The translations under genes and the position numbers were made by a program. From Squalus acanthias (Eukaryota), in NCBI GenBank assembly GCA_030390025.1, contig JASTWF010000034.1, positions 868,001 through 932,000 of the forward strand: a stretch of 64,000 nucleotides of DNA, written 5' to 3'. The notes beneath the pieces were generated by a model. The model made no database searches. It had not been told where the DNA came from and saw nothing but the letters and a program-made list of their open reading frames with translations. Positions 1 through 56,293 of this stretch are shown here, in pieces (position 1 is the first letter of the stretch; each line of letters opens with the position of its first letter).

Positions 1-162
1 TGCCGCTTCTGGTAGCACTCTTGTATTAACATACAAACATAAAAACACAGTAGTTAGTACACCAAATGCAATAAGCCAAAGCACGAATGCAAACAGGTAA
101 GGTAATTGGACATTTACGGGTCGCTTGATCTGTAGGTAAAAGAAACACAAAGAAGCGCCCAT
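1..162 (-). CDS. Putative env-position ORF, N-terminal 54 aa only
   Basis: ATG overlaps the pol stop (TAATG, 164-160). Translates MGASLCFFYLQIKRPVNVQLPYLFAFVLWLIAFGVLTTVFLCLYVNTRVLPEAA, open to the window edge, with a ~23-aa hydrophobic segment. Confidence 0.6.
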   Translation of the reverse strand, partial: MGASLCFFYLQIKRPVNVQLPYLFAFVLWLIAFGVLTTVFLCLYVNTRVLPEAA

Positions 163-3100
163 TAGTTCATCTTTTCTCCATATATTTTTAATTGTGTCCA
201 ATGTTTCCAGACTCCCTTCCCCCTTATGTCCAGACAGGCACAGGTATCACCACTAATTATAATTTCGTAGGGTCCGCTCCATTTTGGGGCGAAGCCTGGC
301 TTGTCAGGCAGGACCTTCAGCATCACTTTGCTGCCCGCTGACGGCACGGAGGGTGTCATGACCCCCTCCTGTGCCTGATCCTGGAGTTCCTGATTGTCTC
401 GTACGGCTTGGCGCATCCCCTTCAGTTGGGTGCTAAGCTCTAAGACATAACGCCGTAGTCTGTCCTTTAAGGGGCCCACATCAGCCCCACCTGTTATGAT
501 GCCTTCTGGTAATTGCATCGCCCTTCCTGTCATTAGTTCATAAGGGGTCAGGCCTGTCGTACGATTCGTGGTGGCTCGTAACTTCATTAGGATAAGGGGT
601 AAAACCTCAACCCATGTTTTCCCAGATTCCTGTATTGCCTTTGCTAAAGCGTTTTTGAGTGTTCGATTCATTCTTTCAACCATTCCCGAGCTCTGGGGGT
701 GGTAAGGGATATGGAACTTCTGTTTGATCCCCATCAGCTGACAAATATTCTTTACTACACTCCCTGTAAAGTGCGTTCCTTGGTCAGAGTCGATTTGCAA
801 GGGCACTCCCCACCGCGGGATTACTTCCTCGGCCAGGATTCTGGCTACCGTTAAGGCCGTGCAATTCCGCGTTGGGAAAGCTTCTACCCACCTTGTGAAC
901 TGGTCAATTATCACAAGGCAGTATATTTTTCCGTGGGACTGGGGAAGTGGTCCCGTAAAATCAATTTGTATGTGCTCCCAAGGACCTCGGGGTCTTGGCT
1001 GGTGGCCCATTCTAATTTTAATAGGCCGGCCAGGATTATGCTGAGCACAAGTGATACATCGCTGACAGTGCCTCGCGATGTCTCTTCCCATCCCCTTCCA
1101 CCACCAATCCTTACTTAATAAGGAGCTCATTGCCTCTCTCCCTGTATGTGAAATACCGTGATGTATCTCTAGCAGAGTCTGTTGTATGCACTCCGGTGCT
1201 ACTACTTTACCTTCTTTTCGCCAGACTCGATCGGATCCTACTCCAGCTCCATTTCTTACCCATGTTTCCTTTTCCGTGTCTGATGCTTCGTCTTGGACTT
1301 CCCAGATCTTTATTTCGTTCTCCGGGCTGTCTACGCTGCCCACCAGTACTTCGTTTATCTCCTCCTGTTCTAGAGCTGCCTGTGCTGCCCAATCAGCCGC
1401 CTGGTTCCCCTGGTGGCTGTCCCAGTCTGGGCTTGTCTTGTCTGGTTCTTTCTGATGGGCCTTAATTTTGATAACTGCCACCTGTTTAGGTCTTTTGCTT
1501 GCTTCTAGCAAGGCCTCTATTCGTCCCTGATGTTTGATGGGGTTACCTCCTGTGGTTATATACCCTCTACGTCCCCATGCTGTCATGTAGTCATGCACTA
1601 CCCCGAAGGCATACCGGCTATCTGTGTATATATTGACTACCTGGTTCTTTGCTTCATTCAATGCTTGAGTCAACGCGACCAACTCTGCTACTTGGGCTGA
1701 TAAGCTACCGTCTAACCGTCCAGATTTAACTACTTCCATCTTACTATTAACTACTGCCCACCCGGTTCGGGGTTGTCCATTAATATATTTACGGGATCCA
1801 TCTACATAGAATGTTTCCTCCACTTCCTCTAGAGGGGTGTCTTTGATAATCTCTTCTCCAATGTCCTCGTCTATTTTTTTACAACTGTGTGGGGCTCCTG
1901 TTCCCAGGATCCCCTCAGCTGGGTTCTCCCCTATGTCTCTGACTATGATGATAGACTCGTTAGGGGGTAATAGAACTGCTTCCCACTTAGCTCTTCTCAT
2001 GTTTGAGACAGATCTTAATTTTCCAGTATTTAGCATTTCCACCAAGGTATGCTTGGTGTGCAAGACTATGTTCCCGGTCATTACTATAGGTTCGCTCACC
2101 TTTACTGCCCATGCTGCGCAGTCCAGTGCCGCTATACATCGCGAGAGTCCGGAGACTACCGGTCCTTCTGCGGTCGAGTAGTATGCCACTGGTCTGCGCT
2201 TATCGCCATGGTCCTGGGTTATCACAGCGGTGTAGAACCCGCCCTCATTGTCACAGTGAATATGGAAAGGTTTGTTCATATCTGGCAGCCCTAGTCCCGG
2301 GGCTGACAGTAACTCCTTCTTCAACTGTCCGTAAGCTTTTTCCTGTTCTGGGCCCCACTCTATGGACTCAAGGGCAGGCCTTCCTCCCTTTACTAACCTT
2401 TGGATAGGCTCAGCTATCTTAGCGAACCCGGGGACGAAGTTCCTGCTGTAGTTAAAAAGTCCTAAGACCTTCCTAACTCCCCTTATTGTCACTGGTCTGG
2501 GCATATCCCAGACTGCAGCCTTCCTATCCGTTGGCATCTCCTTTGTCCCTTGGGAAATGAGATGCCCTAGATACGTGACTTTGAACTTTCCAATCTGGGC
2601 CTTCCTAGGGCTAGCCTTCAGTCCTGCGTCCCTTAATGCTGTCAGTACTATCTTCAGGGCCTTATTATGACCTGGAACTTTGTCCGAGGCTATCAGGAGA
2701 TCGTCAACGTACTGGAGGACCGTGCTCCCTGGTGGGAGCTCTGCACCCTTTAAAATATTACTCATTACCCGATGGAAGATCGCGGGGCTATTATGGAATC
2801 CTTGTGGCAGGCGGGTCCAGGTGTACTGTCTGTCTCCTACTGTGAATGCAAATTTCTCCTGAGACTCTGGATCCAATGGGAGAGCCCAGAATCCGTTGGC
2901 TATGTCCAACACTGTGAATATCTTGTGTTCGGGAGCCAGTCCGTTCAAAATTGTGGACGGGCTGGCGACTATGGGGTGAAGCTTGGGCGTCACTTTATTC
3001 AAGGCCGTATAGTCAATTGTCAGCCTGTAACTCCCATCTGGCTTTTTAACTGGCCACGTAGGGGAATTGGTTGTGCTCGTGGTTTCCCGAAGGACACCTC

Positions 3101-3719
3101 TTTCTACCAATCCCTTTACTATGTCTTCTACAGCTTTCTTTGCTTCTGGTTTAATGGGATATTGTCGGTGGGGTTTGTGTTCGGGTCCTGGGACGACAAT
3201 GGGGTCAATCTGAACCATTCCTGTGTCTAACTTATCTTTTGCCCATACTCCTTGTACCGAGGCACACGTGTCCCCGTACCCATTGGTTTCCACTTGCCAG
3301 TCCCGGCTTACCGCTGTAGCCACTCCCACTTTGGTGGTATTATTGGTCAGACAGTGCATACTAGTTTTATGCCCGTCCAAGTTTGGCCAAGTTATTTTCT
3401 TCTTACCACAATCAATTAATACCTGGTATTCTTTCATTAAGTCATTTCCCATTATTGTTCCCTCATTATTCTTACACACGTAAAATCGCATAGGGATGAA
3501 AAAGTTATCTATTTCTACCAATTGGGTTGTGCTCAGAAAGGCAGGTGTTTTATCACCGCCAATCCCTGTGATGTAGACCTTTCTGTCCGTTATCGGGATG
3601 GGAAGGTTGGTCACGGATACTGAGGCACCGGTGTCCACTAGCATCTCACACGGTCGGCCCCCTACTAGTGCAGACACATACATCCTTCCTTTGTCTCTTT
3701 TTACGGGGGCCGCTGACTG
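162..3719 (-). CDS. pol: Retroviral Pol (protease, RT, tether/degenerate RNase H, RNase H, integrase); frame open from 3719, first ATG at 3683
   Basis: LVDTGA protease; LPQGFHNSP and YVDD in RT; FYVDGS..SAQVAEL..IYTDS..KIKAH RNase H; HHCC, IDFTGP/DSDQG/VERMN integrase core; KWSGPY module. Uninterrupted ORF. Confidence 0.96.
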   Translation of the reverse strand, partial: QSAAPVKRDKGRMYVSALVGGRPCEMLVDTGASVSVTNLPIPITDRKVYITGIGGDKTPAFLSTTQLVEIDNFFIPMRFYVCKNNEGTIMGNDLMKEYQVLIDCGKKKITWPNLDGHKTSMHCLTNNTTKVGVATAVSRDWQVETNGYGDTCASVQGVWAKDKLDTGMVQIDPIVVPGPEHKPHRQYPIKPEAKKAVEDIVKGLVERGVLRETTSTTNSPTWPVKKPDGSYRLTIDYTALNKVTPKLHPIVASPSTILNGLAPEHKIFTVLDIANGFWALPLDPESQEKFAFTVGDRQYTWTRLPQGFHNSPAIFHRVMSNILKGAELPPGSTVLQYVDDLLIASDKVPGHNKALKIVLTALRDAGLKASPRKAQIGKFKVTYLGHLISQGTKEMPTDRKAAVWDMPRPVTIRGVRKVLGLFNYSRNFVPGFAKIAEPIQRLVKGGRPALESIEWGPEQEKAYGQLKKELLSAPGLGLPDMNKPFHIHCDNEGGFYTAVITQDHGDKRRPVAYYSTAEGPVVSGLSRCIAALDCAAWAVKVSEPIVMTGNIVLHTKHTLVEMLNTGKLRSVSNMRRAKWEAVLLPPNESIIIVRDIGENPAEGILGTGAPHSCKKIDEDIGEEIIKDTPLEEVEETFYVDGSRKYINGQPRTGWAVVNSKMEVVKSGRLDGSLSAQVAELVALTQALNEAKNQVVNIYTDSRYAFGVVHDYMTAWGRRGYITTGGNPIKHQGRIEALLEASKRPKQVAVIKIKAHQKEPDKTSPDWDSHQGNQAADWAAQAALEQEEINEVLVGSVDSPENEIKIWEVQDEASDTEKETWVRNGAGVGSDRVWRKEGKVVAPECIQQTLLEIHHGISHTGREAMSSLLSKDWWWKGMGRDIARHCQRCITCAQHNPGRPIKIRMGHQPRPRGPWEHIQIDFTGPLPQSHGKIYCLVIIDQFTRWVEAFPTRNCTALTVARILAEEVIPRWGVPLQIDSDQGTHFTGSVVKNICQLMGIKQKFHIPYHPQSSGMVERMNRTLKNALAKAIQESGKTWVEVLPLILMKLRATTNRTTGLTPYELMTGRAMQLPEGIITGGADVGPLKDRLRRYVLELSTQLKGMRQAVRDNQELQDQAQEGVMTPSVPSAGSKVMLKVLPDKPGFAPKWSGPYEIIISGDTCACLDIRGKGVWKHWTQLKIYGEKMN

Positions 3720-3734
3720 TCACTGTGTCTCTTT

Positions 3735-5054
3735 CTACTGTTGATATTGTCTCTTTTCTTCGGGGGTCATGGTGACGTGGGTCGTCTCAGGTCTGCCATG
3801 TTTACTGAAACAAGTGGCCTCAGTATGGCCCTTCTTATTACAGTAAGTACATGTCTTCTTAGCCATACAATCTCTAATAAAATGTCCAGGCTTCCCGCAA
3901 CCATGACATGCCCCCTTGGGTCCCACTGCCTGTTTTACCGCACTTACACTTTCCTGTTTAACCTTGACCGTACCTTCCTCTTTGGCTTTTAACCCGTCTA
4001 CCCCACAAGCCCACTCTACTAGGTCGTCGTAATTCCTGGTTGTTACTACGCCCATCTTGATGATAGCCTGGTGTGCGGGAGACAAGCCATCTTTAAAGGC
4101 CTGAATGAAAGCGGGGTCAGTTCTTGCCGGCCCTGGTTGGCCTGATGACTCTCCATAAACAATAAACAGCCTTTCTCCATATTCGGAGGCCCCCTCGCCC
4201 TTTTGCTGCTTACAGGACGTTATCTTACTCCAATTAGTTGGGGCCTCTCCTAACACCCGCTGGATTTCTGTTTTAAACAGATTAAAGGGAGCCTGTTGTC
4301 GGTCTATTGTATCTGCCAATGGACATTGTTCAGTCCATCGACCGGTCTTATAATCCGTATTGGCCTGATTGGGGGTGGTCTGCGTGAGGCGCCATCGGTC
4401 GACCGGACATGCTGCCCGGACCAACTGATGAACGTCACGCAGGTGGAGGCTGTGTCCCAGCCAAACCATATCTAGGTTTGCCCAGAACTTGGTGTTGGCA
4501 CTTCGTGTTTGTAAGTTCCCCAGGTCTTTCAAAATCTGTTGTCTTTCTCCCGGGGTAAAAGGCTGAAAATCCGCCCTTGCCCCGGCGGCACCAGGCTGGC
4601 CCCTCATTCTAACGGGGGCCGCGAAATATTCTTCTGTTGTATCCCCAACTGTTTCTTCAGTTGGGGCTGTTGGTCCGGAAAGTCCGTACGGGGGGAGTGG
4701 ATCTGTGTTACACCCCGTCCACCTTCCGGGACACATTCTACTTTGTTCTTGATTTATTCCCTCTAGTATTTCTATCTTCTTTTTTAAATCTGCTATTTCT
4801 CTGTTTTTGGCCTTCTCAGTCTCTCGGACCTTATCTACTTGCTCGATTAGTCCCGCCAATTGGTGTACCAAAAGAACTCCCGTTTTCTTGGTTTTCTCCC
4901 TTTTTTGCTTACGTACCCACTCTCGTTGTGACTCTAATGACTGGCTAACATCCCAGCCATCTTTCTGCATTCTGTCTATCAGCGAACGTCTATCTGTCAT
5001 GTAACTATTAATAAGGGACCCCGGGGGCCCCATCTTAATGTCCTTACCTGACAT
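3735..5054 (-). CDS. gag: Retroviral Gag polyprotein (439 aa)
   Basis: Late-domain-like LPPY and PTAP motifs, MHR-like ITSCKQQKGEGASEYGERL, two zinc knuckles CHGCGKPGHFIRDC and CTYCNKKGHTEATC. Confidence 0.92.
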   Translation of the reverse strand: MSGKDIKMGPPGSLINSYMTDRRSLIDRMQKDGWDVSQSLESQREWVRKQKREKTKKTGVLLVHQLAGLIEQVDKVRETEKAKNREIADLKKKIEILEGINQEQSRMCPGRWTGCNTDPLPPYGLSGPTAPTEETVGDTTEEYFAAPVRMRGQPGAAGARADFQPFTPGERQQILKDLGNLQTRSANTKFWANLDMVWLGHSLHLRDVHQLVRAACPVDRWRLTQTTPNQANTDYKTGRWTEQCPLADTIDRQQAPFNLFKTEIQRVLGEAPTNWSKITSCKQQKGEGASEYGERLFIVYGESSGQPGPARTDPAFIQAFKDGLSPAHQAIIKMGVVTTRNYDDLVEWACGVDGLKAKEEGTVKVKQESVSAVKQAVGPKGACHGCGKPGHFIRDCMAKKTCTYCNKKGHTEATCFSKHGRPETTHVTMTPEEKRQYQQ

Positions 5055-5397
5055 CGCCCGTCCGCTCTCCGATCACACTCTCCAGTAAACACTCACCGCC
5101 TCTCTTCACTCTCCCGTCCTTCTGGACTCGTGAACTCGTTTACCGACGTGTCTAGTTGCCTGGAGTTCCGGATCTCGCAAGCACTGCCCGCAGACTTTAT
5201 CACAGGTTTTACTCTGTACCTTTAACCTACGGCCCAAAAATTTGACAGTGTAATGCAGAATACTCACAACGGTTCCCCCTCTGCCTTCCGAGAATACCCG
5301 GACCAAAAACCCCTATAAAGTGTACTCTCGCAAATCCCCTCAGATTCTTTCGGTTACTTGAGCCCGTTAACACTTGATCAGGGTGTCGGTACTCAGT

Positions 5398-5416
5398 AAC
5401 CCTGCTCGCAGCGCCA
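5398..5416 (-). promoter_or_regulatory. Primer-binding site, tRNA-Ser type
   Basis: Minus strand TGGCGCTGCGAGCAGGGTT. Plus strand AACCCTGCTCGCAGCGCCA resembles the 3' end of vertebrate tRNA-Ser(UGA/CGA) plus CCA (tRNA sequence recalled, not searched). Confidence 0.8.
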
Positions 5417-5418
5417 AT

Positions 5419-5928
5419 TGTTGTAGGGGCTAATCGGAGCCTTAAGCGGACTAACCGTGAAGGAGAGTCGACGCGCTACCCGACTTAGCCCGACTGAGCA
5501 ATAAAACTCAAACACCAATTTACACGGTTAAATGCGGGAGTACACTTTATTCAGAGCGCTCTGGGAGAGAATTGATGCACCCACGTGCAGTCACCGACCT
5601 CTCAAATAAGTCACTCTGGGGCACAGTATTTTATACATCCATCATTGATTACATCGTGCTCACATGAGCATGTGATAGTCATTAGAATCCAATCAATTTT
5701 ATGTATACAATTGTTAAGCATAGTAAATCAATTAACGTCAGGATACAGTTGATGTGATCAGCCTCGTCTATGTGACAGTGTTATCTCGAGCCCTGTATGT
5801 TGCAACGTTGTCTGACAAGGCAGACTGCCAATCCATTGCAGAAAAGTCCTGTGTCAGCGAATTTAAAGTTCATTAACTGGATGAGTTTTTCTTCTCCGAC
5901 ATTTCTTTAATAATTTTCTCCTCCAACA
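5419..5928 (-). repeat. ERV 5' LTR (510 bp)
   Basis: Minus strand starts TGTTGGAG (5928) and ends CTACAACA (5419), 2 nt before the PBS. TATAAAA at 5635-5629 and AATAAA at 5551-5546. CR1 sequence starts abruptly at 5929. Confidence 0.88.
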
Positions 5929-49275: not shown

Positions 49276-49659
49276 ATCCAATCCCCTTTTCATATACTCT
49301 ACACCCCTAACTGTAACACTGATATACCCCACACCCCTCACTGTTACACTGATATACCCTACACCCCTCACTGTAACACTGATACACCACAAACCCCTCA
49401 CTGTAACACTGATACACCACAGACCCCTCACTGTAACACTGATATACCCCACACCCCTCACTGTAACACTGATAAACCACAGACCCCTCACTGTAACACT
49501 GATATACCCCACACCCCTCACTGTAACACTGATTTACCCCACACCCCTCACTGTAACACTGATATACTCCACACCCCTCACTGTAACACTGATATACCCC
49601 ACACTCCTCACTGTAACACTGATATACTCCACACCCCTCACTGTAATTCTGATATGCAC

Positions 49660-49853
49660 TGTCGTAAGAATGAGCCTTACGCGTGGTGAACTTAAAGTAA
49701 GCTTTAATCAACTAAAAAGGTGCTACATACAAAAGAGGTCTTACTCTATGCCTCTCCAGGATCCAACTGCTCAGTCCAGTATTTATCCTGGACTAATCAC
49801 AGGAAGTGATGCAATAAAGTTCGAGTCACAGGAAGCTGTATTGTGTTACCACA
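49660..49853 (-). repeat. Gypsy 3' LTR
   Basis: Direct repeat of 53907-54100; preceded on the minus strand by a G-run plus AGAA. Confidence 0.96.
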
Positions 49854-49871
49854 TTCTCCCCCCCCAAAAGA

Positions 49872-52800
49872 TTAGGAGGCCGGGATGCTCCCTCCATTTC
49901 GTAGCCGCCGGACGAGGGAGAGCCGCACCCGTTTGGGTTCTCGTAGCGGTAGAGGGGCCCTAGCCCGTTTACCCGCCGCGGGCCGTGGACCAGAGTCCGA
50001 GTGATCCAGCCCGCTCTGTGAGGGGTCAGGACGATCCTGACTGTGTACTGGTGCCCGAACGGGTGTCGGGCAGGGCTGTGGCAGATCCGTTTCCGAGCGT
50101 ATGGTACGGGGTGGATCGTGGCTGCGCGTGCGAGCCCCGACGGGCTCATAGTCAGTCTGCCCCAGGTCGGCACGCTGGAGTGAGGTACCAGCCGGCGTCA
50201 GATCCAGATCGTGATGAGAGGCACCTGGCGAGCACAGAGATGTGCCTGGTACAATATCATCCCCTGGTGTCCCTCTATGTTTCGGCGGGCAGGGAGCCAG
50301 ATCCCGCAATGACACGGTAGATTCCCGACCGTCAGGATACCGAATATAGGCGTAGGTAGGGTTGACGTCAGTGAGCTCAACCTCATCTACCAGGGGGTCA
50401 TTCTTAGACGCCCGAACATATCTTCGGAGTAGCACTGGTCCCGGTGCAGTCAGCCACGATGGGAGAGATATCCCATAGGATGAGCGACGCTGAAATCGGA
50501 AGAACCGTTCATGAGGCGTCGTATTTGTGGCGGTCGAAAGGAGGGACCATGTGGAGTGTAATGCGTCTGGAAGTACTGCTTCCCATTGCTGGTTGGGTAG
50601 GCCCCGAGATCTCAAAGCCAGACGTACCGCATTCCAGATGATAGCGTTAAAACGCTCGACTTGCCCATTCCCGACCGGATGATAAGGCGTCGTTCTGCTG
50701 GCAGCAATACCCCGTTCCGAGAGATAGGCCTTGAGTTCTCCTGACATAAAAGAAGGGCCCCGATCCGAATGAACATAGGATGCCATGCCACAGAAAGCAA
50801 ATACCTGCTCAAGGCAGCTGATAACCGTGGTCGTCAGCATATTGGGGCAGGGAAAGGCGAACGGAAAACGGGAATACTCATCGACCATGGTCAATAGATA
50901 AGTGTTGCGAGTTGAAGAGGGCAACGGCCCCTTAAAATCGATGCTAAGCCGTTGCATTGGCTGGGTCGCATGTATGAGTATACCACCCGAGGGGCGGAAA
51001 AACTGAGGTTTCAATTCCGCACAGACTCTGCAGTCCGAGCACATCTTCTTTACATCCCCGGTAGAGAATGGGAGATTTCGGGAACGCACGAAGTGTAGCA
51101 TGCGAGTAACGCCCGGATGACACAACCCATCATGGATGTCTACGAGCATAGAGGGTGCCATGGCGGAGCAGAATGCTCGTGTGAGGGTATCCGGAGCCAC
51201 ATTCTCCTTGCCAGGTCGATAGTGGATGGTGTAACCAAAAGAGGCCAATTCCAGCCGCCAAAGCTGGATTTTATTATTTTTAATTTTGGTCCGTTTTCGA
51301 TTATCGAGCATGAAGGCGACCGATCGCTGGTCCGTGATTAAGGTAAAGTGCTGGCGAGCTAGGAGATGAGTCCACTTCCGTACTGCCTCTATGATGGCTG
51401 TAGCTTCTTTCTCGACTGGAGGATAATGTAGCTCAGCCCCTTGAAAAGTCCTGGACAAAAATGCCACCGGACGACCTTCCTGATTCAGAGTGGCCGAGAC
51501 CGCCACCTCCGAGGCATCACACTCAACAACAAAAGGAAGACTCTCATCGATGGAGTGAAGAGCCGCTTTCTCCAACTGTTTTTTCAGGAGGTTAAAGGCT
51601 GCAACAGCCGCTGTGTCTAGTGGGAATGTGCTGGCCTTCAGTAGAGGTTGGATTCGGTCCGAGAAGTTAGGAATCCATTTAGCATAGTATGCAAACAGGC
51701 CGAGGGCCCGGCGCAAGGAGGCCGGATTCTTAGGTGGCGGGAGCTCTTGGAGTGGGCGAAGCCTTTCAGGGTCAGGTTTAATGATGCCATTGCCCACACA
51801 ATAGCCAAGGATGTTGATGGTTGGTTGTGACTCAATGGATTTAGCCGCATTTAATGTCAAATTACGGTGCTGGAGTGCATCCCAAAATCGTTGGAGATTG
51901 GCGTCATGTTCCCGCTGATTGCGACCTGCGACAGTAATATTGTCCAGATAAGGAAACGTATCCTTCAAGTCTTCCTGTTTGACCAGGTCATCCATTGCTC
52001 GCTGGAAGACAGCCACTCCAAAAGTGACCCCAAAGGGGAGGCGACGAAATTGATACAGCCGTCCATTGGCTTCAAAGGCCGTATACTGCTTGTCTGAGAC
52101 CTTCAAGGGTACCTGATGATAGGCACTTTTCAGATCATATGTTGAGAACACCGTGTACTCAGCCAGTTTATTAACCATATCATCGATGCGCGGCAATGGG
52201 TATGCATCCAAGTCCGTATATTGATTGATGGTCTGTGAATAGTCAATGCACAGCCGTTTCTTGTGAGGTTGTAGAGGGTTCTTAACAATAACGACCTGGG
52301 CGCGCCATGGCGACGAACAAGGCTCGATGATATCCTCTGCTAAAAGCCAAGAAATCTCAGCCGCAATAAAAGACTGGTCTTCCTGACTGAAACGTCGTGA
52401 CTTTGTTATAATCGGTTTGCATCGAGGAGGGATACTGGTAAACAGTGAGGGTTCATCCAGTGAAGCTGCTGACAATGCACAGAACGGTAATCGAGGTCGT
52501 ATATTAGAAATAGTGAGTTCAGGTTTGGATCCGCCGAACTCAATGGTGAGCTTCTTATGCTGCTTTTGAAAATCCAGCCCTAAGATAAGATCACTACATA
52601 AGTCCTTGAGCACCGAAAGCCGGGTGGAGGGATACCTGTGACCATTAAGTGTTATTTCAACCATACAAAAGCCAGAAATTCTGGTATTAAGTGATGACTG
52701 AGCCATCGCAATTGCCTGGTCCGATGGGAAAACATGTAGCTTTAACTCTGCAACAATCTGTTCCCTAATGAAACTATCAGTGCTACCTGAGTCAATTAAG

Positions 52801-53828
52801 GCATCTAAAGTATGTCCATTAATTGATGCTTTTGTAGCTGCATGGAATAGGTTCTGAGGACAAGCAGCTGTAATTGGTGTCGTTGCACAAAGAGTGGCTG
52901 AAACTCTAGGTGTGTTTCTTCGAGAGAAAACCCGAGAGGAAGCACGATAGATTTTAGCCGGAACATCTTGATAGGCCCTTACCGGGGCAGTTCGGTAGGA
53001 CTTAGCTTGATAAGCCCTCGTAGAGGCTCTTGATAGGCAAACCTTTGCAAAATGACCCTTTTTGTTGCAATGACTGCAAAACGCATTGCGAGCAGGGCAG
53101 AATTTCCGAGGGTGAAACTCATCACCACAAAAGAAGCATTTCTTAGATTGCCAAGAGGCTGCCACAGTGGGGTCATCATCCTCTTCATCAGTGAAGTCAT
53201 CAGATTGATCGTCAGGAATAAAGTCCTCCCTAATAGAGTTCACCTCTGGCCTCTTAAATTGCCTGACTGTAGTTAAGGCAGCAGACCGAGGTCTGGGCAC
53301 TGTATAAAGGTCTGCATTTCTTTTTGCCAGATCTAGAGAGCAAGCCATGTCATAAGCTCTCTGAAGCTCAAGTGTCTTACTTTCCAGTAGACGCTGGCGT
53401 ATAAATGGGGAGGCAAGCCCGCAGATGAAAGCATCACGGATCATTTCTTCACGGTACAGCTCAGCTGAGGCCGCCTGAAAGTTACAGTCCATACTAAGTC
53501 TGCGAAGCTCTTGGAGGAATTTATCAATGGATTCCTCCGGCCCTTGTTGGGCTGTAGCTAGTAGATGTCTGGCATAGACCTCATTCGGTGTCTTAGTATA
53601 TAGTCTTTTAAGCGTCCGAATTGCCTCCTCGTAACTGCCCCATTCCTCAACATACTGAAATACATTCGGAGTGACACAGTTGATGAGTATCCGCAACTTT
53701 GTGTCATCATCAGCCTTGCAATATTCGAGAAAATTGTCAAACGTGCGATACCAGTGTTTCCACACCTTACCGGCTGCTGGGGTGTTTGGGTCCAAGTCAA
53801 GACGCGATGGTTTAAGGATGTTTTCCAT
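49872..53828 (-). CDS. Gypsy Gag-Pol polyprotein (1318 aa)
   Basis: Two CCHC knuckles, LIDSGS protease, YLDN RT, ECDAS RNase H, HHCC and IDFKGP/HSDRG/QVER integrase; order PR-RT-RH-IN. Confidence 0.96.
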   Translation of the reverse strand: MENILKPSRLDLDPNTPAAGKVWKHWYRTFDNFLEYCKADDDTKLRILINCVTPNVFQYVEEWGSYEEAIRTLKRLYTKTPNEVYARHLLATAQQGPEESIDKFLQELRRLSMDCNFQAASAELYREEMIRDAFICGLASPFIRQRLLESKTLELQRAYDMACSLDLAKRNADLYTVPRPRSAALTTVRQFKRPEVNSIREDFIPDDQSDDFTDEEDDDPTVAASWQSKKCFFCGDEFHPRKFCPARNAFCSHCNKKGHFAKVCLSRASTRAYQAKSYRTAPVRAYQDVPAKIYRASSRVFSRRNTPRVSATLCATTPITAACPQNLFHAATKASINGHTLDALIDSGSTDSFIREQIVAELKLHVFPSDQAIAMAQSSLNTRISGFCMVEITLNGHRYPSTRLSVLKDLCSDLILGLDFQKQHKKLTIEFGGSKPELTISNIRPRLPFCALSAASLDEPSLFTSIPPRCKPIITKSRRFSQEDQSFIAAEISWLLAEDIIEPCSSPWRAQVVIVKNPLQPHKKRLCIDYSQTINQYTDLDAYPLPRIDDMVNKLAEYTVFSTYDLKSAYHQVPLKVSDKQYTAFEANGRLYQFRRLPFGVTFGVAVFQRAMDDLVKQEDLKDTFPYLDNITVAGRNQREHDANLQRFWDALQHRNLTLNAAKSIESQPTINILGYCVGNGIIKPDPERLRPLQELPPPKNPASLRRALGLFAYYAKWIPNFSDRIQPLLKASTFPLDTAAVAAFNLLKKQLEKAALHSIDESLPFVVECDASEVAVSATLNQEGRPVAFLSRTFQGAELHYPPVEKEATAIIEAVRKWTHLLARQHFTLITDQRSVAFMLDNRKRTKIKNNKIQLWRLELASFGYTIHYRPGKENVAPDTLTRAFCSAMAPSMLVDIHDGLCHPGVTRMLHFVRSRNLPFSTGDVKKMCSDCRVCAELKPQFFRPSGGILIHATQPMQRLSIDFKGPLPSSTRNTYLLTMVDEYSRFPFAFPCPNMLTTTVISCLEQVFAFCGMASYVHSDRGPSFMSGELKAYLSERGIAASRTTPYHPVGNGQVERFNAIIWNAVRLALRSRGLPNQQWEAVLPDALHSTWSLLSTATNTTPHERFFRFQRRSSYGISLPSWLTAPGPVLLRRYVRASKNDPLVDEVELTDVNPTYAYIRYPDGRESTVSLRDLAPCPPKHRGTPGDDIVPGTSLCSPGASHHDLDLTPAGTSLQRADLGQTDYEPVGARTRSHDPPRTIRSETDLPQPCPTPVRAPVHSQDRPDPSQSGLDHSDSGPRPAAGKRARAPLPLREPKRVRLSLVRRLRNGGSIPAS

Positions 53829-53906
53829 GATGGGTGATTCCCTGGATCCTTAGTTCCGAGTTCGTCCAAAAAGTTTGAGTGCGAAGTTTTTCAAAGTTGA
53901 TTAAAT

Positions 53907-54100
53907 TGTCGTAAGAATGAGCCTTACGCGTGGTGAACTTAAAGTAAGCTTCAATCAACTAAAAAGGTGCTACATACAAAAGAGGTCTTACTCTATGCCT
54001 CTCCAGGATCCAACTGCTCAGTCCAGTATTTATCCTGGACTAATCACAGGAAGTGATGCAATAAAGTTCGAGTCACAGGAAGCTGTATTGTGTTACCACA
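53907..54100 (-). repeat. Gypsy 5' LTR
   Basis: Direct repeat of 49660-49853. Confidence 0.96.
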
Positions 54101-56293
54101 TGCACCACTCCCCTCACTGTAACACTGACATACCCCACACCCCTCACTGTAACACTGATATACCCCACACCCCTCACTGTAACACTGATATACCCCACAC
54201 CCCTCAGTGTAACACTGATATACCCCACACCCCTCACTGTAAAACTGATACACCCCACACCCCTCACTGTAAAACTGATATACACAACACCCCTCACTGT
54301 AACACTGATATACTCCAAACCATTCACTGTAACACTGATGTACACCACACCACTCACTGTAACACTGATATATCCATATACCCCACACCCCTCAGTATGA
54401 CACTAAAATACCCCACACCCCTCACTGTAACGCACTGATATAAACCACACCCCTCACTGTAACACTGATATAGCCAACACCCCTCACTGTAACACAGATA
54501 TATACAGCACCCCACACTGTAAAACTCATAAACCCCACAACCATCACTGTAACACTGATATACACCACACCCTTCACTGTAACACTGATATAACCCATAC
54601 CCCTCACTGTAACACTGATATTACCCGACACCCCACACTGTAACACTGATATACCCCACACCCTTCACTGTAACACTGAAATATCCCGCACCCCTCACTT
54701 TAACACTGATATACCCCACATCCCTCACTGTAACACTGATGTACCACACAACTCTCACTGTAACACTGATATACCCCACACCCCTCACTGTAACACTGAT
54801 ATACCCCACACCCCTCACTGTAACACTGATATAACCGACACCTCTCACTGTAACACTGATATTACCCGACACCCCACACTGTAACACTGAGATACCCCAA
54901 ACCCTTCACTGTAACACTGATATACCCCACACCCCTCACTGTAACACTGATATACCCCACACACCTCACTGTAACACTGATATACCCCACACCACACACT
55001 GTAACACTGATATACCCCACACCCCTCACTGTAACACTGATATACCCCGCACCCCTCACTTTAACACTGATATACCCCACACCCCTCACTGTAACACTGA
55101 TATACCCCACACCCCTCACTGTAACACTGATATACCCCACACCCTTCACTGTAACACTGAAATATCCCGCACCCCTCACTTTAACACTGATGTACCACAC
55201 AACTCTCACTGTAACGCTGATATACCCCACACCCCTCACTGTAACACTGATATACCCCACACCCCTCACTGTAACACTGATATACCCCACACCCCTCACT
55301 GTAACACTGATATAACCGACACCCCTCACTGTAACACTGATATTACCCGACACCCCACACTGTAACACTGATATACCCCACACCCTTCACTGTAACACTG
55401 ATATACCCCACACCCCTCACTGTAACACTGATATACCCCACATCCCTCACTGTAACACTGATGTACCACACAACTCTCACTTTAACACTGATATACCCCA
55501 CACCCCTCACTGTAACACTGATATACCCCACACCCCTCACTGTAACACTGATATAACCGACACCCCTCACTGTAACACTGATATTACCCGACACCCCACA
55601 CTGTAACACTGAGATACCCCAAACCCTTCACTGTAACACTGATATACACCACACCCCTCACTGTAACACTGATATACCCCACACCCCTCACTGTAACACT
55701 GATATACCCCACACCACACACTGTAACACTGATATACCCCACACCCCTCACTGTAACACTGATATACCCCGCACCCCTCACTTTAACACTGATATACCCC
55801 ACACCCCTCACTGTAACACTGATATACCCCACACCCCTCACTGTAACACTGATATACCCCACACCCTTCACTGTAACACTGAAATATCCCGCACCCCTCA
55901 CTTTAACACTGATGTACCACACAACTCTCACTGTAACGCTGATATACCCCACACCCCTCACTGTAACACTGATATACCCCACACCCCTCACTGTAACACT
56001 GATATACCCCACACCCCTCACTGTAACACTGATATAACCGACACCCCTCACTGTAACACTGATATTACCCGACACCCCACACTGTAACACTGATATACCC
56101 CACACCCTTCACTGTAACACTGATATACCCCACACCCCTCACTGTAACACTGATATACCCCACACCCCACACTGTAACACTGATATACCCCACACCCCAC
56201 ACTGTAACACTGATATACCCCACACCCCTCACTGTAACACTGATATACCCCGCACCCCTCAATTTAACACTCTGATTCACTGGGAAGGCGAGC

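What the first reader, a model, noticed from the sequence alone, without database searches (positions are those of the whole stretch)
53895..53960. Gypsy element with no tRNA PBS: an 11-nt site complementary to its own LTR suggests self-priming
Seen: after the 5' LTR the minus strand reads A-TTTAATCAACT (53905-53895), with no TGG. The LTR contains its exact complement AGTTGATTAAA (perfect in the 3' LTR; AGTTGATTGAA, a G-U pair, at 53960-53950 in the 5' LTR). This overlaps the likely ATTAAA poly(A) signal. Known: Tf1/sushi chromoviruses self-prime through an ~11-nt duplex with the transcript 5' end. Inference: this Mag-like, non-chromodomain element may use tRNA-independent priming, or a hairpin that masks the 5' poly(A) signal.
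Basis: partly seen in the sequence, partly recalled or inferred. Interest (0 to 1): 0.75.

Follow-up and report, generated by a model that had tools for sequence, protein, structure and literature searches.

The report
Self-priming Gypsy clade in animals
This young jumping gene and its distant relatives from many animals carry, where a host tRNA would normally dock, 10-18 letters that pair with the element's own terminal repeat and change in step with it, so the whole group likely starts copying itself with a piece of its own RNA.

Summary
Observation confirmed. The site lies in an intact 4,441-nt Gypsy element (194-nt LTRs, 5-bp target duplication, one ORF) of a young family with about 2,000 LTR/primer-site junctions. 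The site starts 2 nt after the LTR's CA, where TGG starts in tRNA-primed elements, and pairs with an 11-nt LTR arm. The G in this copy is a private mutation. In 34 of 37 assessable related loci (many are sister copies) the pairing persists in the same register with other letters: 10 of 13 pairs show two-sided changes and none a one-sided change. This fits a site re-copied from its primer better than a plain hairpin. A second hairpin abuts the predicted cut. The lineage is a separate, strongly supported clade, outside my two chromodomain and my Mag-like references; a sister relation to chromoviruses is not rejected. Best reading: Tf1-like self-priming. Transcription start, cleavage and primer are untested; a 3'-end primer remains open. 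Host tRNA-Ile pairs with this site but not with most relatives' sites. My searches found no paper on it; this scan noted it repeatedly on other DNA.

The parts
49660..54100 (-). Complete Ty3/gypsy LTR retrotransposon, 4,441 nt
54101..54105 (-). 5-bp target-site duplication, left copy (GTGCA)
49655..49659 (-). 5-bp target-site duplication, right copy (GTGCA)
53907..54100 (-). 5' LTR, 194 nt, TG...CA
53950..53960 (-). LTR arm, the predicted self-primer; ends in the ATTAAA-type hexamer; G at 53952 is private to this copy
   Evidence: primer role inferred
53937..53949 (-). Short hairpin directly 3' of the arm (predicted cut between 53950 and 53949); an R-C-C/T-T...A-G/A-G-Y helix recurs in relatives
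   Evidence: cut site inferred
53910..53928 (-). Predicted U5 hairpin next to the LTR end; not conserved in sequence among relatives
53906..53906 (-). Single unpaired base between LTR end and primer site
   Evidence: A in 23 of 25 rows
53895..53905 (-). Primer-binding site, complementary to the LTR arm, no TGG
   Evidence: 97 of the first 100 listed junctions identical
49872..53849 (-). Single open frame (1,325 codons, first ATG at 53828): Gag with two Cys-His knuckles, protease, RT, RNase H, integrase; no chromodomain, no envelope
51939..51950 (-). RT active-site motif YLDN (Asn in place of the second Asp of YxDD)
49854..49865 (-). Polypurine tract abutting the 3' LTR
49660..49853 (-). 3' LTR, 194 nt
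49703..49713 (-). 3' copy of the arm, perfect complement of the primer site

Best explanation
The 11 nt after the 5' LTR pair with an arm in the element's own LTR, and that arm, likely the first 11 nt of the RNA, is predicted to be cut off and to prime minus-strand DNA synthesis in place of a tRNA, as in Tf1. SHOWN: complementarity, fixed register (site starts at LTR+2; arm ends ...AAA before a short hairpin), two-sided change across families, no TGG site, recent massive copying, intact RNase H residues. INFERRED: (1) a TATA-less start at or near the A at 53960 (TTAGT, initiator-like); (2) fold-back of the arm onto the site, stacked on the small hairpin; (3) a cut just 3' of the arm, probably by the element's RNase H as in Tf1; (4) RT extends the freed 3' end over the single spacer base and U5, then jumps to the 3' R; (5) plus-strand synthesis copies the primer and so rewrites the site, which would keep the pair purely Watson-Crick. 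The arm often doubles as the poly(A) hexamer, so the duplex may also hide the 5' signal as a side effect.
For: Family: 2,036 junction matches, 97 of the first 100 with the identical site; full-length copies with distinct target duplications and near-identical LTRs in 19 of 20 fetched, so it replicates without a TGG site. Relatives: duplex in 34 of 37 loci with sequence upstream of gag, including the most basal row L119 with an unrelated 15-bp sequence. In 18 chosen rows, 194 of 198 cells are Watson-Crick, against a mean of 8.4 of 11 for swapped partners; 0 of 100,000 permutations reach this. On a plain MAFFT alignment of 12 rows, 10 of 13 pairs change on both sides (23 cells), 0 on one side only; 0 of 500 shuffles; slid registers pair 20-46%. 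G-U pairs: 1 of 195 paired cells in this helix against 12 of 79 in the adjacent hairpin. Position equals that of TGG in tRNA-primed controls (gap 1-3 nt, 1 nt in 5 of 10), whose own LTR complement is only 3-7 bp. Pairing in this family stops sharply at the A at 53960 (T-T at the next position). RNase H acidic residues are invariant in 67 of 67 aligned proteins. Tf1 mechanism as summarised in PMC7175516 (passages) and bioRxiv 10.1101/2022.12.06.519325 (passages).
Against: No start site, cut or primer was observed: the one raw RNA run gave 0 reads and the others are contigs. No TATA box about 30 nt upstream in this or most related LTRs. In most relatives pairing runs past the conserved AG, to -13 in 15 of 18 and -16 in 11 of 18 rows, and to -19 in L053, so an 11-nt primer is not general; either starts vary or the 3' copy is used. 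The Tf1 three-duplex 'pretzel' is not seen in the folds. Rows were chosen because they show the duplex, and related rows are not independent. L122 (degraded) shows only 7 bp, and L071 and L072 show none.
Confidence: 0.62

Rival explanations
1. Self-priming, but by the 3' copy of the arm (from the same RNA or its dimer partner), cut free of the downstream hairpin and poly(A) tail.
For: Both LTRs carry the arm. Pairing often extends 2-8 nt upstream of the conserved AG, which the 3' copy offers whatever the start site. No TATA or start-site evidence ties the arm to the 5' end.
Against: A primer that is the end of a long RNA has no natural stop for plus-strand copying, whereas pairing ends sharply at 10-18 bp; in this family a T-T mismatch at position 12 persists. 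The 5' arm is only 23-67 nt away in most rows and folds locally. My variant checks did not separate the models: all arm or site variants read looked post-insertional.
Confidence: 0.23
2. The duplex only hides the poly(A) signal in the 5' LTR (or regulates translation), and priming uses something else.
For: The arm ends in AATAAA or ATTAAA in 15 of 25 rows; the duplex is specific to the 5' end of the RNA.
Against: It offers no primer for an actively copying family. It would not need a fixed LTR+2 register or exclusion of G-U pairs. Ten of 25 rows lack a canonical hexamer there yet keep the duplex.
Confidence: 0.08
3. A host tRNA fragment (5' piece of tRNA-Ile(AAU) ending in the D-loop) or another small RNA primes.
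For: The D-loop of a tRNA-Ile(AAU) gene in this genome pairs with the site over 11 nt with two G-U pairs, -9.6 against -9.8 kcal/mol for the arm; it is comparable for 8 of 20 sites. Half-tRNA primers exist in plant copia lineages (PMC6317226, passages).
Against: For 12 of 20 sites it is weaker than -6.5 while the own arm pairs fully or nearly so. Sites follow their own arms, including at the two wobble positions. Only three tRNA genes (Ile, Lys, Cys) were tested, not the full set. No Rfam family matches the region.
Confidence: 0.05

Closest known systems
Tf1/Tf2 (Schizosaccharomyces pombe), Tj1, Tosmo and the Tf1/sushi group of chromoviruses
   Same: Ty3/gypsy order; no tRNA site; sequence just after the 5' LTR complementary to about 11 nt in the LTR. 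In Tf1 the first 11 bases anneal and RNase H cuts between bases 11 and 12 (PMC7175516, PMC4600332, bioRxiv 10.1101/2022.12.06.519325; passages).
   Different: No chromodomain or Tf2-type SH3 hit; two-knuckle Gag; own clade with a long stem; local hairpin instead of the three-duplex pretzel; arm often carries the poly(A) hexamer; duplex 10-18 bp; RT motif mostly YxDN.
Tcn1 (plant/fungal chromoviruses) and TAR copia lineage
   Same: Self-priming predicted from LTR complementarity alone, by a similar criterion (10 bp or more, 0-5 nt after the LTR; PMC6317226, passages). TAR shows that the trait can occur outside Tf1/sushi.
   Different: Plant lineages; Tcn1 is chromoviral and TAR is copia.
Mag lineage (A/B/C clades, SURL); represented here by unnamed tRNA-Ser/Leu-primed elements that I label Mag-like from recall
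   Same: Weak Gag similarity; K02A2.6-like clusters are among the Atlas look-alikes; short LTRs and a single ORF.
   Different: RT only about 28-30% identical; separate clade; Mag-like controls have TGG tRNA sites.
Cigr-1 (Ciona) or one of the MolGy/LGF clades
   Same: Small separate Gypsy clades of marine invertebrates (PMC6238403, PMC8220671; passages). Cigr-1's size and echinoderm-like Gag are recalled, not checked. Homologues occur in an ascidian, corals, crustaceans and a nematode.
   Different: No reference sequence was available, so identity is untested; the passages seen say nothing on priming.

Membership tests
Ty3/gypsy LTR retrotransposon | Two LTRs (TG..CA), target duplication, PPT, gag-PR-RT-RH-IN order | tested here: met
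Tf1/sushi chromoviruses | Primer site complementary to own LTR, no tRNA site | tested here: met
Tf1/sushi chromoviruses | [quoted passage not shown] | tested here: inconclusive
   no start-site data; no TATA; indirect hint from the sharp end of pairing
Tf1/sushi chromoviruses | Chromodomain at the integrase C-terminus | tested here: not met
   no PF00385 or PF24626 hit at E<=0.01
Tf1/sushi chromoviruses | Pol groups within chromoviruses | tested here: not met
   the two chromodomain references pair without it (99/96, 97/97); own clade 100/100. Only two unnamed references; a sister relation is not rejected (p-AU 0.135 and 0.082)
Tf1/sushi chromoviruses | Three-duplex pretzel structure | tested here: inconclusive
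   not seen in energy folds of 18 leaders, which give a multiloop with local hairpins; the folding does not model pseudoknots
Tf1/sushi chromoviruses | RNase H cut frees the primer | not testable with these tools
   catalytic residues conserved; activity unknown
Mag lineage | Pol groups within Mag | tested here: not met
   outside the Mag-like group (99/95, 99/98); sister to it in the best trees only at 81/51 and 66/36; references unnamed
Mag lineage | tRNA primer site (TGG) | tested here: not met
Mag lineage | Gag with two Cys-His knuckles (recalled feature) | tested here: met
Cigr-1 / MolGy clades | RT-RNase H groups with the named references | not testable with these tools
   no reference sequences; motif searches in held supplements found none

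The most novel reading that the evidence does not exclude
A widespread animal Gypsy clade evolved tRNA-free self-priming independently of Tf1/sushi. It uses the strand that carries its poly(A) signal as the primer, cut at a conserved two-helix junction, and replicates with an RT whose catalytic YxDD is mostly YxDN.
Probability: 0.5. Interest if true: 0.75.

Novelty: new variant of a known kind. Interest (0 to 1): 0.62.

Why it matters
Self-priming is shown experimentally for fission-yeast Tf1 and inferred mainly for its chromoviral relatives. A separate animal clade with the same logic but another RNA architecture would mean either a repeated origin of tRNA independence or a much older, wider trait. 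It gives a young, high-copy vertebrate-genome family in which start site and primer can be read from native RNA. Such elements would escape silencing by tRNA 3' fragments that target primer sites (inference; PMC7472051 seen as search listing only), and LTR finders that demand a tRNA site would under-call them. The natural YxDN motif is also notable: the same change in Ty1 cuts polymerisation 223-fold and abolishes transposition unless RNase H suppressors arise (PMC2148107, abstract).

Tried and rejected
Start-site mapping from public RNA: raw run X16 gave 0 reads, and seven contig runs cannot show ends. Viral-contig scan with the clade alignment: nothing. First degenerate chromovirus pattern: 0 hits; the second gave 4 loci, 3 retroelements, 2 with chromodomain-like ends. 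Sushi-type references in the own genome: DUF4939 none, SH3_Tf2-1 weak only. A hotspot at LTR position 149, suggested by three 5'-only G copies, was rejected: the 10 variants fall in 5', 3' and solo LTRs and comprise three bases. A compensated primer-site variant for that position: 0 found. Two site variants checked have unchanged 5' arms and no 3' LTR in the fetched stretch. L164 was mislabelled by its site in the tree (its RT groups with tRNA-Trp elements) and was dropped from later trees. L102, L122, L124 were too short for the tree. The careful search did not finish, so that tree is the quick one. The self-complement score of L179/L180 is not informative because their LTRs are cut at contig ends. 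Primary Tf1 papers and one review (PMC109269, PMC230564, PMC1563812, PMC6388632) were not held. Ten literature searches found no description of self-priming in this clade. The library lacks most subscription papers and Repbase/GyDB entries, and three supplement files (two scanned PDFs, two files beyond the fetch limit in part) were not searched, so prior description cannot be excluded.

Full report
THE ELEMENT. The site belongs to a complete LTR retrotransposon on the minus strand, 54100-49660. It has two 194-nt LTRs that differ at one base, a 5-bp target duplication (GTGCA) and a polypurine tract abutting the 3' LTR. One open frame of 1,325 codons encodes Gag with two Cys-His knuckles, protease, RT, RNase H and integrase; Pfam shows no chromodomain. 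It sits in a 30-bp tandem array. The family is young and large: 2,036 matches to the LTR-end/site junction pattern, 150 scored Gag segments 100% identical, many in full-length frames, and 19 of 20 fetched copies with both LTRs and their own target duplications.

THE OBSERVATION. After the LTR's CA comes one A and then TTTAATCAACT (53905-53895). Its complement lies 43 nt before the LTR end: perfect in the 3' LTR, with one A-to-G change in the 5' LTR. Chance expectation is about 1e-4 per LTR; the fold of this copy alone is not significant (z -1.75). The G is private: 27 of 30 5' LTRs have A, 10 LTRs genome-wide have another base, and in the 7 such elements with both LTRs read only one LTR is changed. 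The site itself is identical in 97 of the first 100 junctions listed; two have one substitution and one is not a 5' junction.

RELATIVES. A profile of 67 homologues retrieved 66 metagenome loci and 11 loci from genome bins that carry host DNA. Forty of these 77 lacked the 5' end or were not examined. Of 37 with sequence upstream of gag, 34 show the duplex; L122 is degraded (7 bp), and L071 and L072 show none and no recognisable LTR. Many of the 34 are sister copies. In 18 rows chosen to cover the variants (14 different arms), 194 of 198 cells are Watson-Crick, swapped partners average 8.4 of 11, and no permutation in 100,000 reaches the observed sum. On an ordinary alignment of 12 rows, 10 of 13 pairs change on both sides (23 cells) and none on one side only; slid registers fall to 20-46% paired. 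The register is fixed: the site starts at LTR+2 and the arm ends in ...AAA, followed at once by a short hairpin. The upstream end varies, giving 10-18 bp in undamaged rows. The most basal row, L119, has a 15-bp duplex of unrelated sequence. Control elements of other lineages have TGG sites 1-3 nt after the LTR and only 3-7 bp of self-complement. These rows are related, so the shuffle counts are not probabilities, but the two-sided changes recur on separate branches of the tree.

WHY PRIMING RATHER THAN A HAIRPIN. Three points, all inferences. First, a family that copies itself needs a minus-strand primer, and this is the only candidate at the position where tRNA sites lie. Second, the helix avoids G-U pairs (1 of 195 paired cells) while the adjacent hairpin has them (12 of 79, biased by the search rules). 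That is expected if the site is rewritten each cycle by copying the primer (established for tRNA-primed elements; my knowledge). Third, the canonical poly(A) hexamer ends the arm in only 15 of 25 rows, so masking can be a bonus but not the cause.

THE tRNA TEST. A tRNA-Ile(AAU) gene of this genome has a D-loop that pairs with the site over 11 nt with two wobbles, -9.6 kcal/mol against -9.8 for the arm. For this element alone that rival would stand. Across 20 sites it is comparable for 8 and weak for 12, while the own arm pairs in nearly all, and sites follow their arms at the wobble positions. Only three tRNA genes were tested.

WHICH COPY PRIMES. [quoted passage not shown] Here an A at -11 is present in 16 of 18 rows and G at -10 in 17, initiator-like, and in this family pairing stops exactly there. 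Against this, pairing reaches -13 in 15 of 18 rows, there is no TATA box, and no RNA ends could be mapped.

PLACEMENT. RT-RNase H (and integrase) trees put the window element and all duplex-bearing rows in one clade with a long stem, 100/100 (one search is a quick tree of 66 rows). It lies outside the pair of chromodomain-bearing references, the Mag-like tRNA-Ser/Leu group, the tRNA-Trp group and the integrase-first group. Those labels are mine, from domain order and primer site, with names recalled. The sister group is unresolved: Mag-like at 81/51 and 66/36, and a forced grouping with chromoviruses is not rejected (p-AU 0.135, 0.082). Independent origin is therefore likely but not shown. Gag alone resembles the Mag-like elements weakly. 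Named homologues come from a prawn, a copepod, a nematode, corals, a sea anemone and an ascidian. The clade may equal Cigr-1 or a MolGy clade (recalled; PMC6238403 passages); this was not testable. The RT motif is YxDN in 52 of 67 aligned proteins. In Ty1 this change cripples transposition (PMC2148107, abstract), yet this family is evidently active.

LITERATURE AND EARLIER NOTES. Passages read list self-priming for Tf1/sushi, Tcn1 and the plant copia lineage TAR. Ten searches found no account for this clade; most subscription papers and repeat databases are outside the library. This scan's own notes report the same feature many times, in this and other genomes (63 findings by words; 186 notes in this genome fit the looser look-up). 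They are unchecked AI notes, were read after my covariation tests, and are not counted as support.

VERDICT. Real, clade-wide and strongly covarying. Self-priming in some form about 0.85; the Tf1-like 5' version 0.62. It works like Tf1 but fails the chromovirus membership tests that could be run. New variant of a known kind; interest 0.62.

Noticed in passing
window 51939-51950 (-): RT active site reads YLDN; YxDN in 52 of 67 aligned homologues, YxDD in the rest. The equivalent Ty1 mutant loses transposition.
   Followed up: partly
window 162-5927 (-): Retrovirus-like element: gag frame 3735-5072 and pol frame 162-3719 separated by a stop, pol with two RNase H-type domains, TGG primer site at about 5416; it interrupts a LINE-like sequence upstream. 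Used only as a tree outgroup.
   Followed up: no
window 49292-49655 and 54105-56271: The element sits inside a 30-bp tandem array; the window holds several other arrays (24, 65, 67, 75 bp periods).
   Followed up: no
window 53959-53960, 53935-54058 (contigs of runs X1, X5, X11): A related LTR variant has one extra base at the upstream end of the arm, which would give a 12-bp duplex.
   Followed up: partly
L033:4476-4740 and L047:4483-4747 (as oriented): Two copies have a short duplicated or rearranged piece in front of the 3' LTR.
   Followed up: no
L206:1453-1526: The arm plus two bases resembles the D-loop of tRNA-Ile(AAU) at 11 of 13 positions; possibly chance, possibly a trace of a captured primer. 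The basal row L119 does not share it.
   Followed up: partly
L120-L126, L182-L201 (G001-G004): Several bacterial genome bins hold many animal-type LTR retrotransposons, which points to host DNA in the bins.
   Followed up: no
L053:4919-5003: Both LTR arms share one change that the site lacks, while pairing extends to -19 and into the start codon region; a possible intermediate in arm-to-site conversion.
   Followed up: partly
window 53960 onward, run X5 record 16: One low-depth contig continues into U3 with several A-to-G differences on the + strand; editing or a diverged copy.
   Followed up: no
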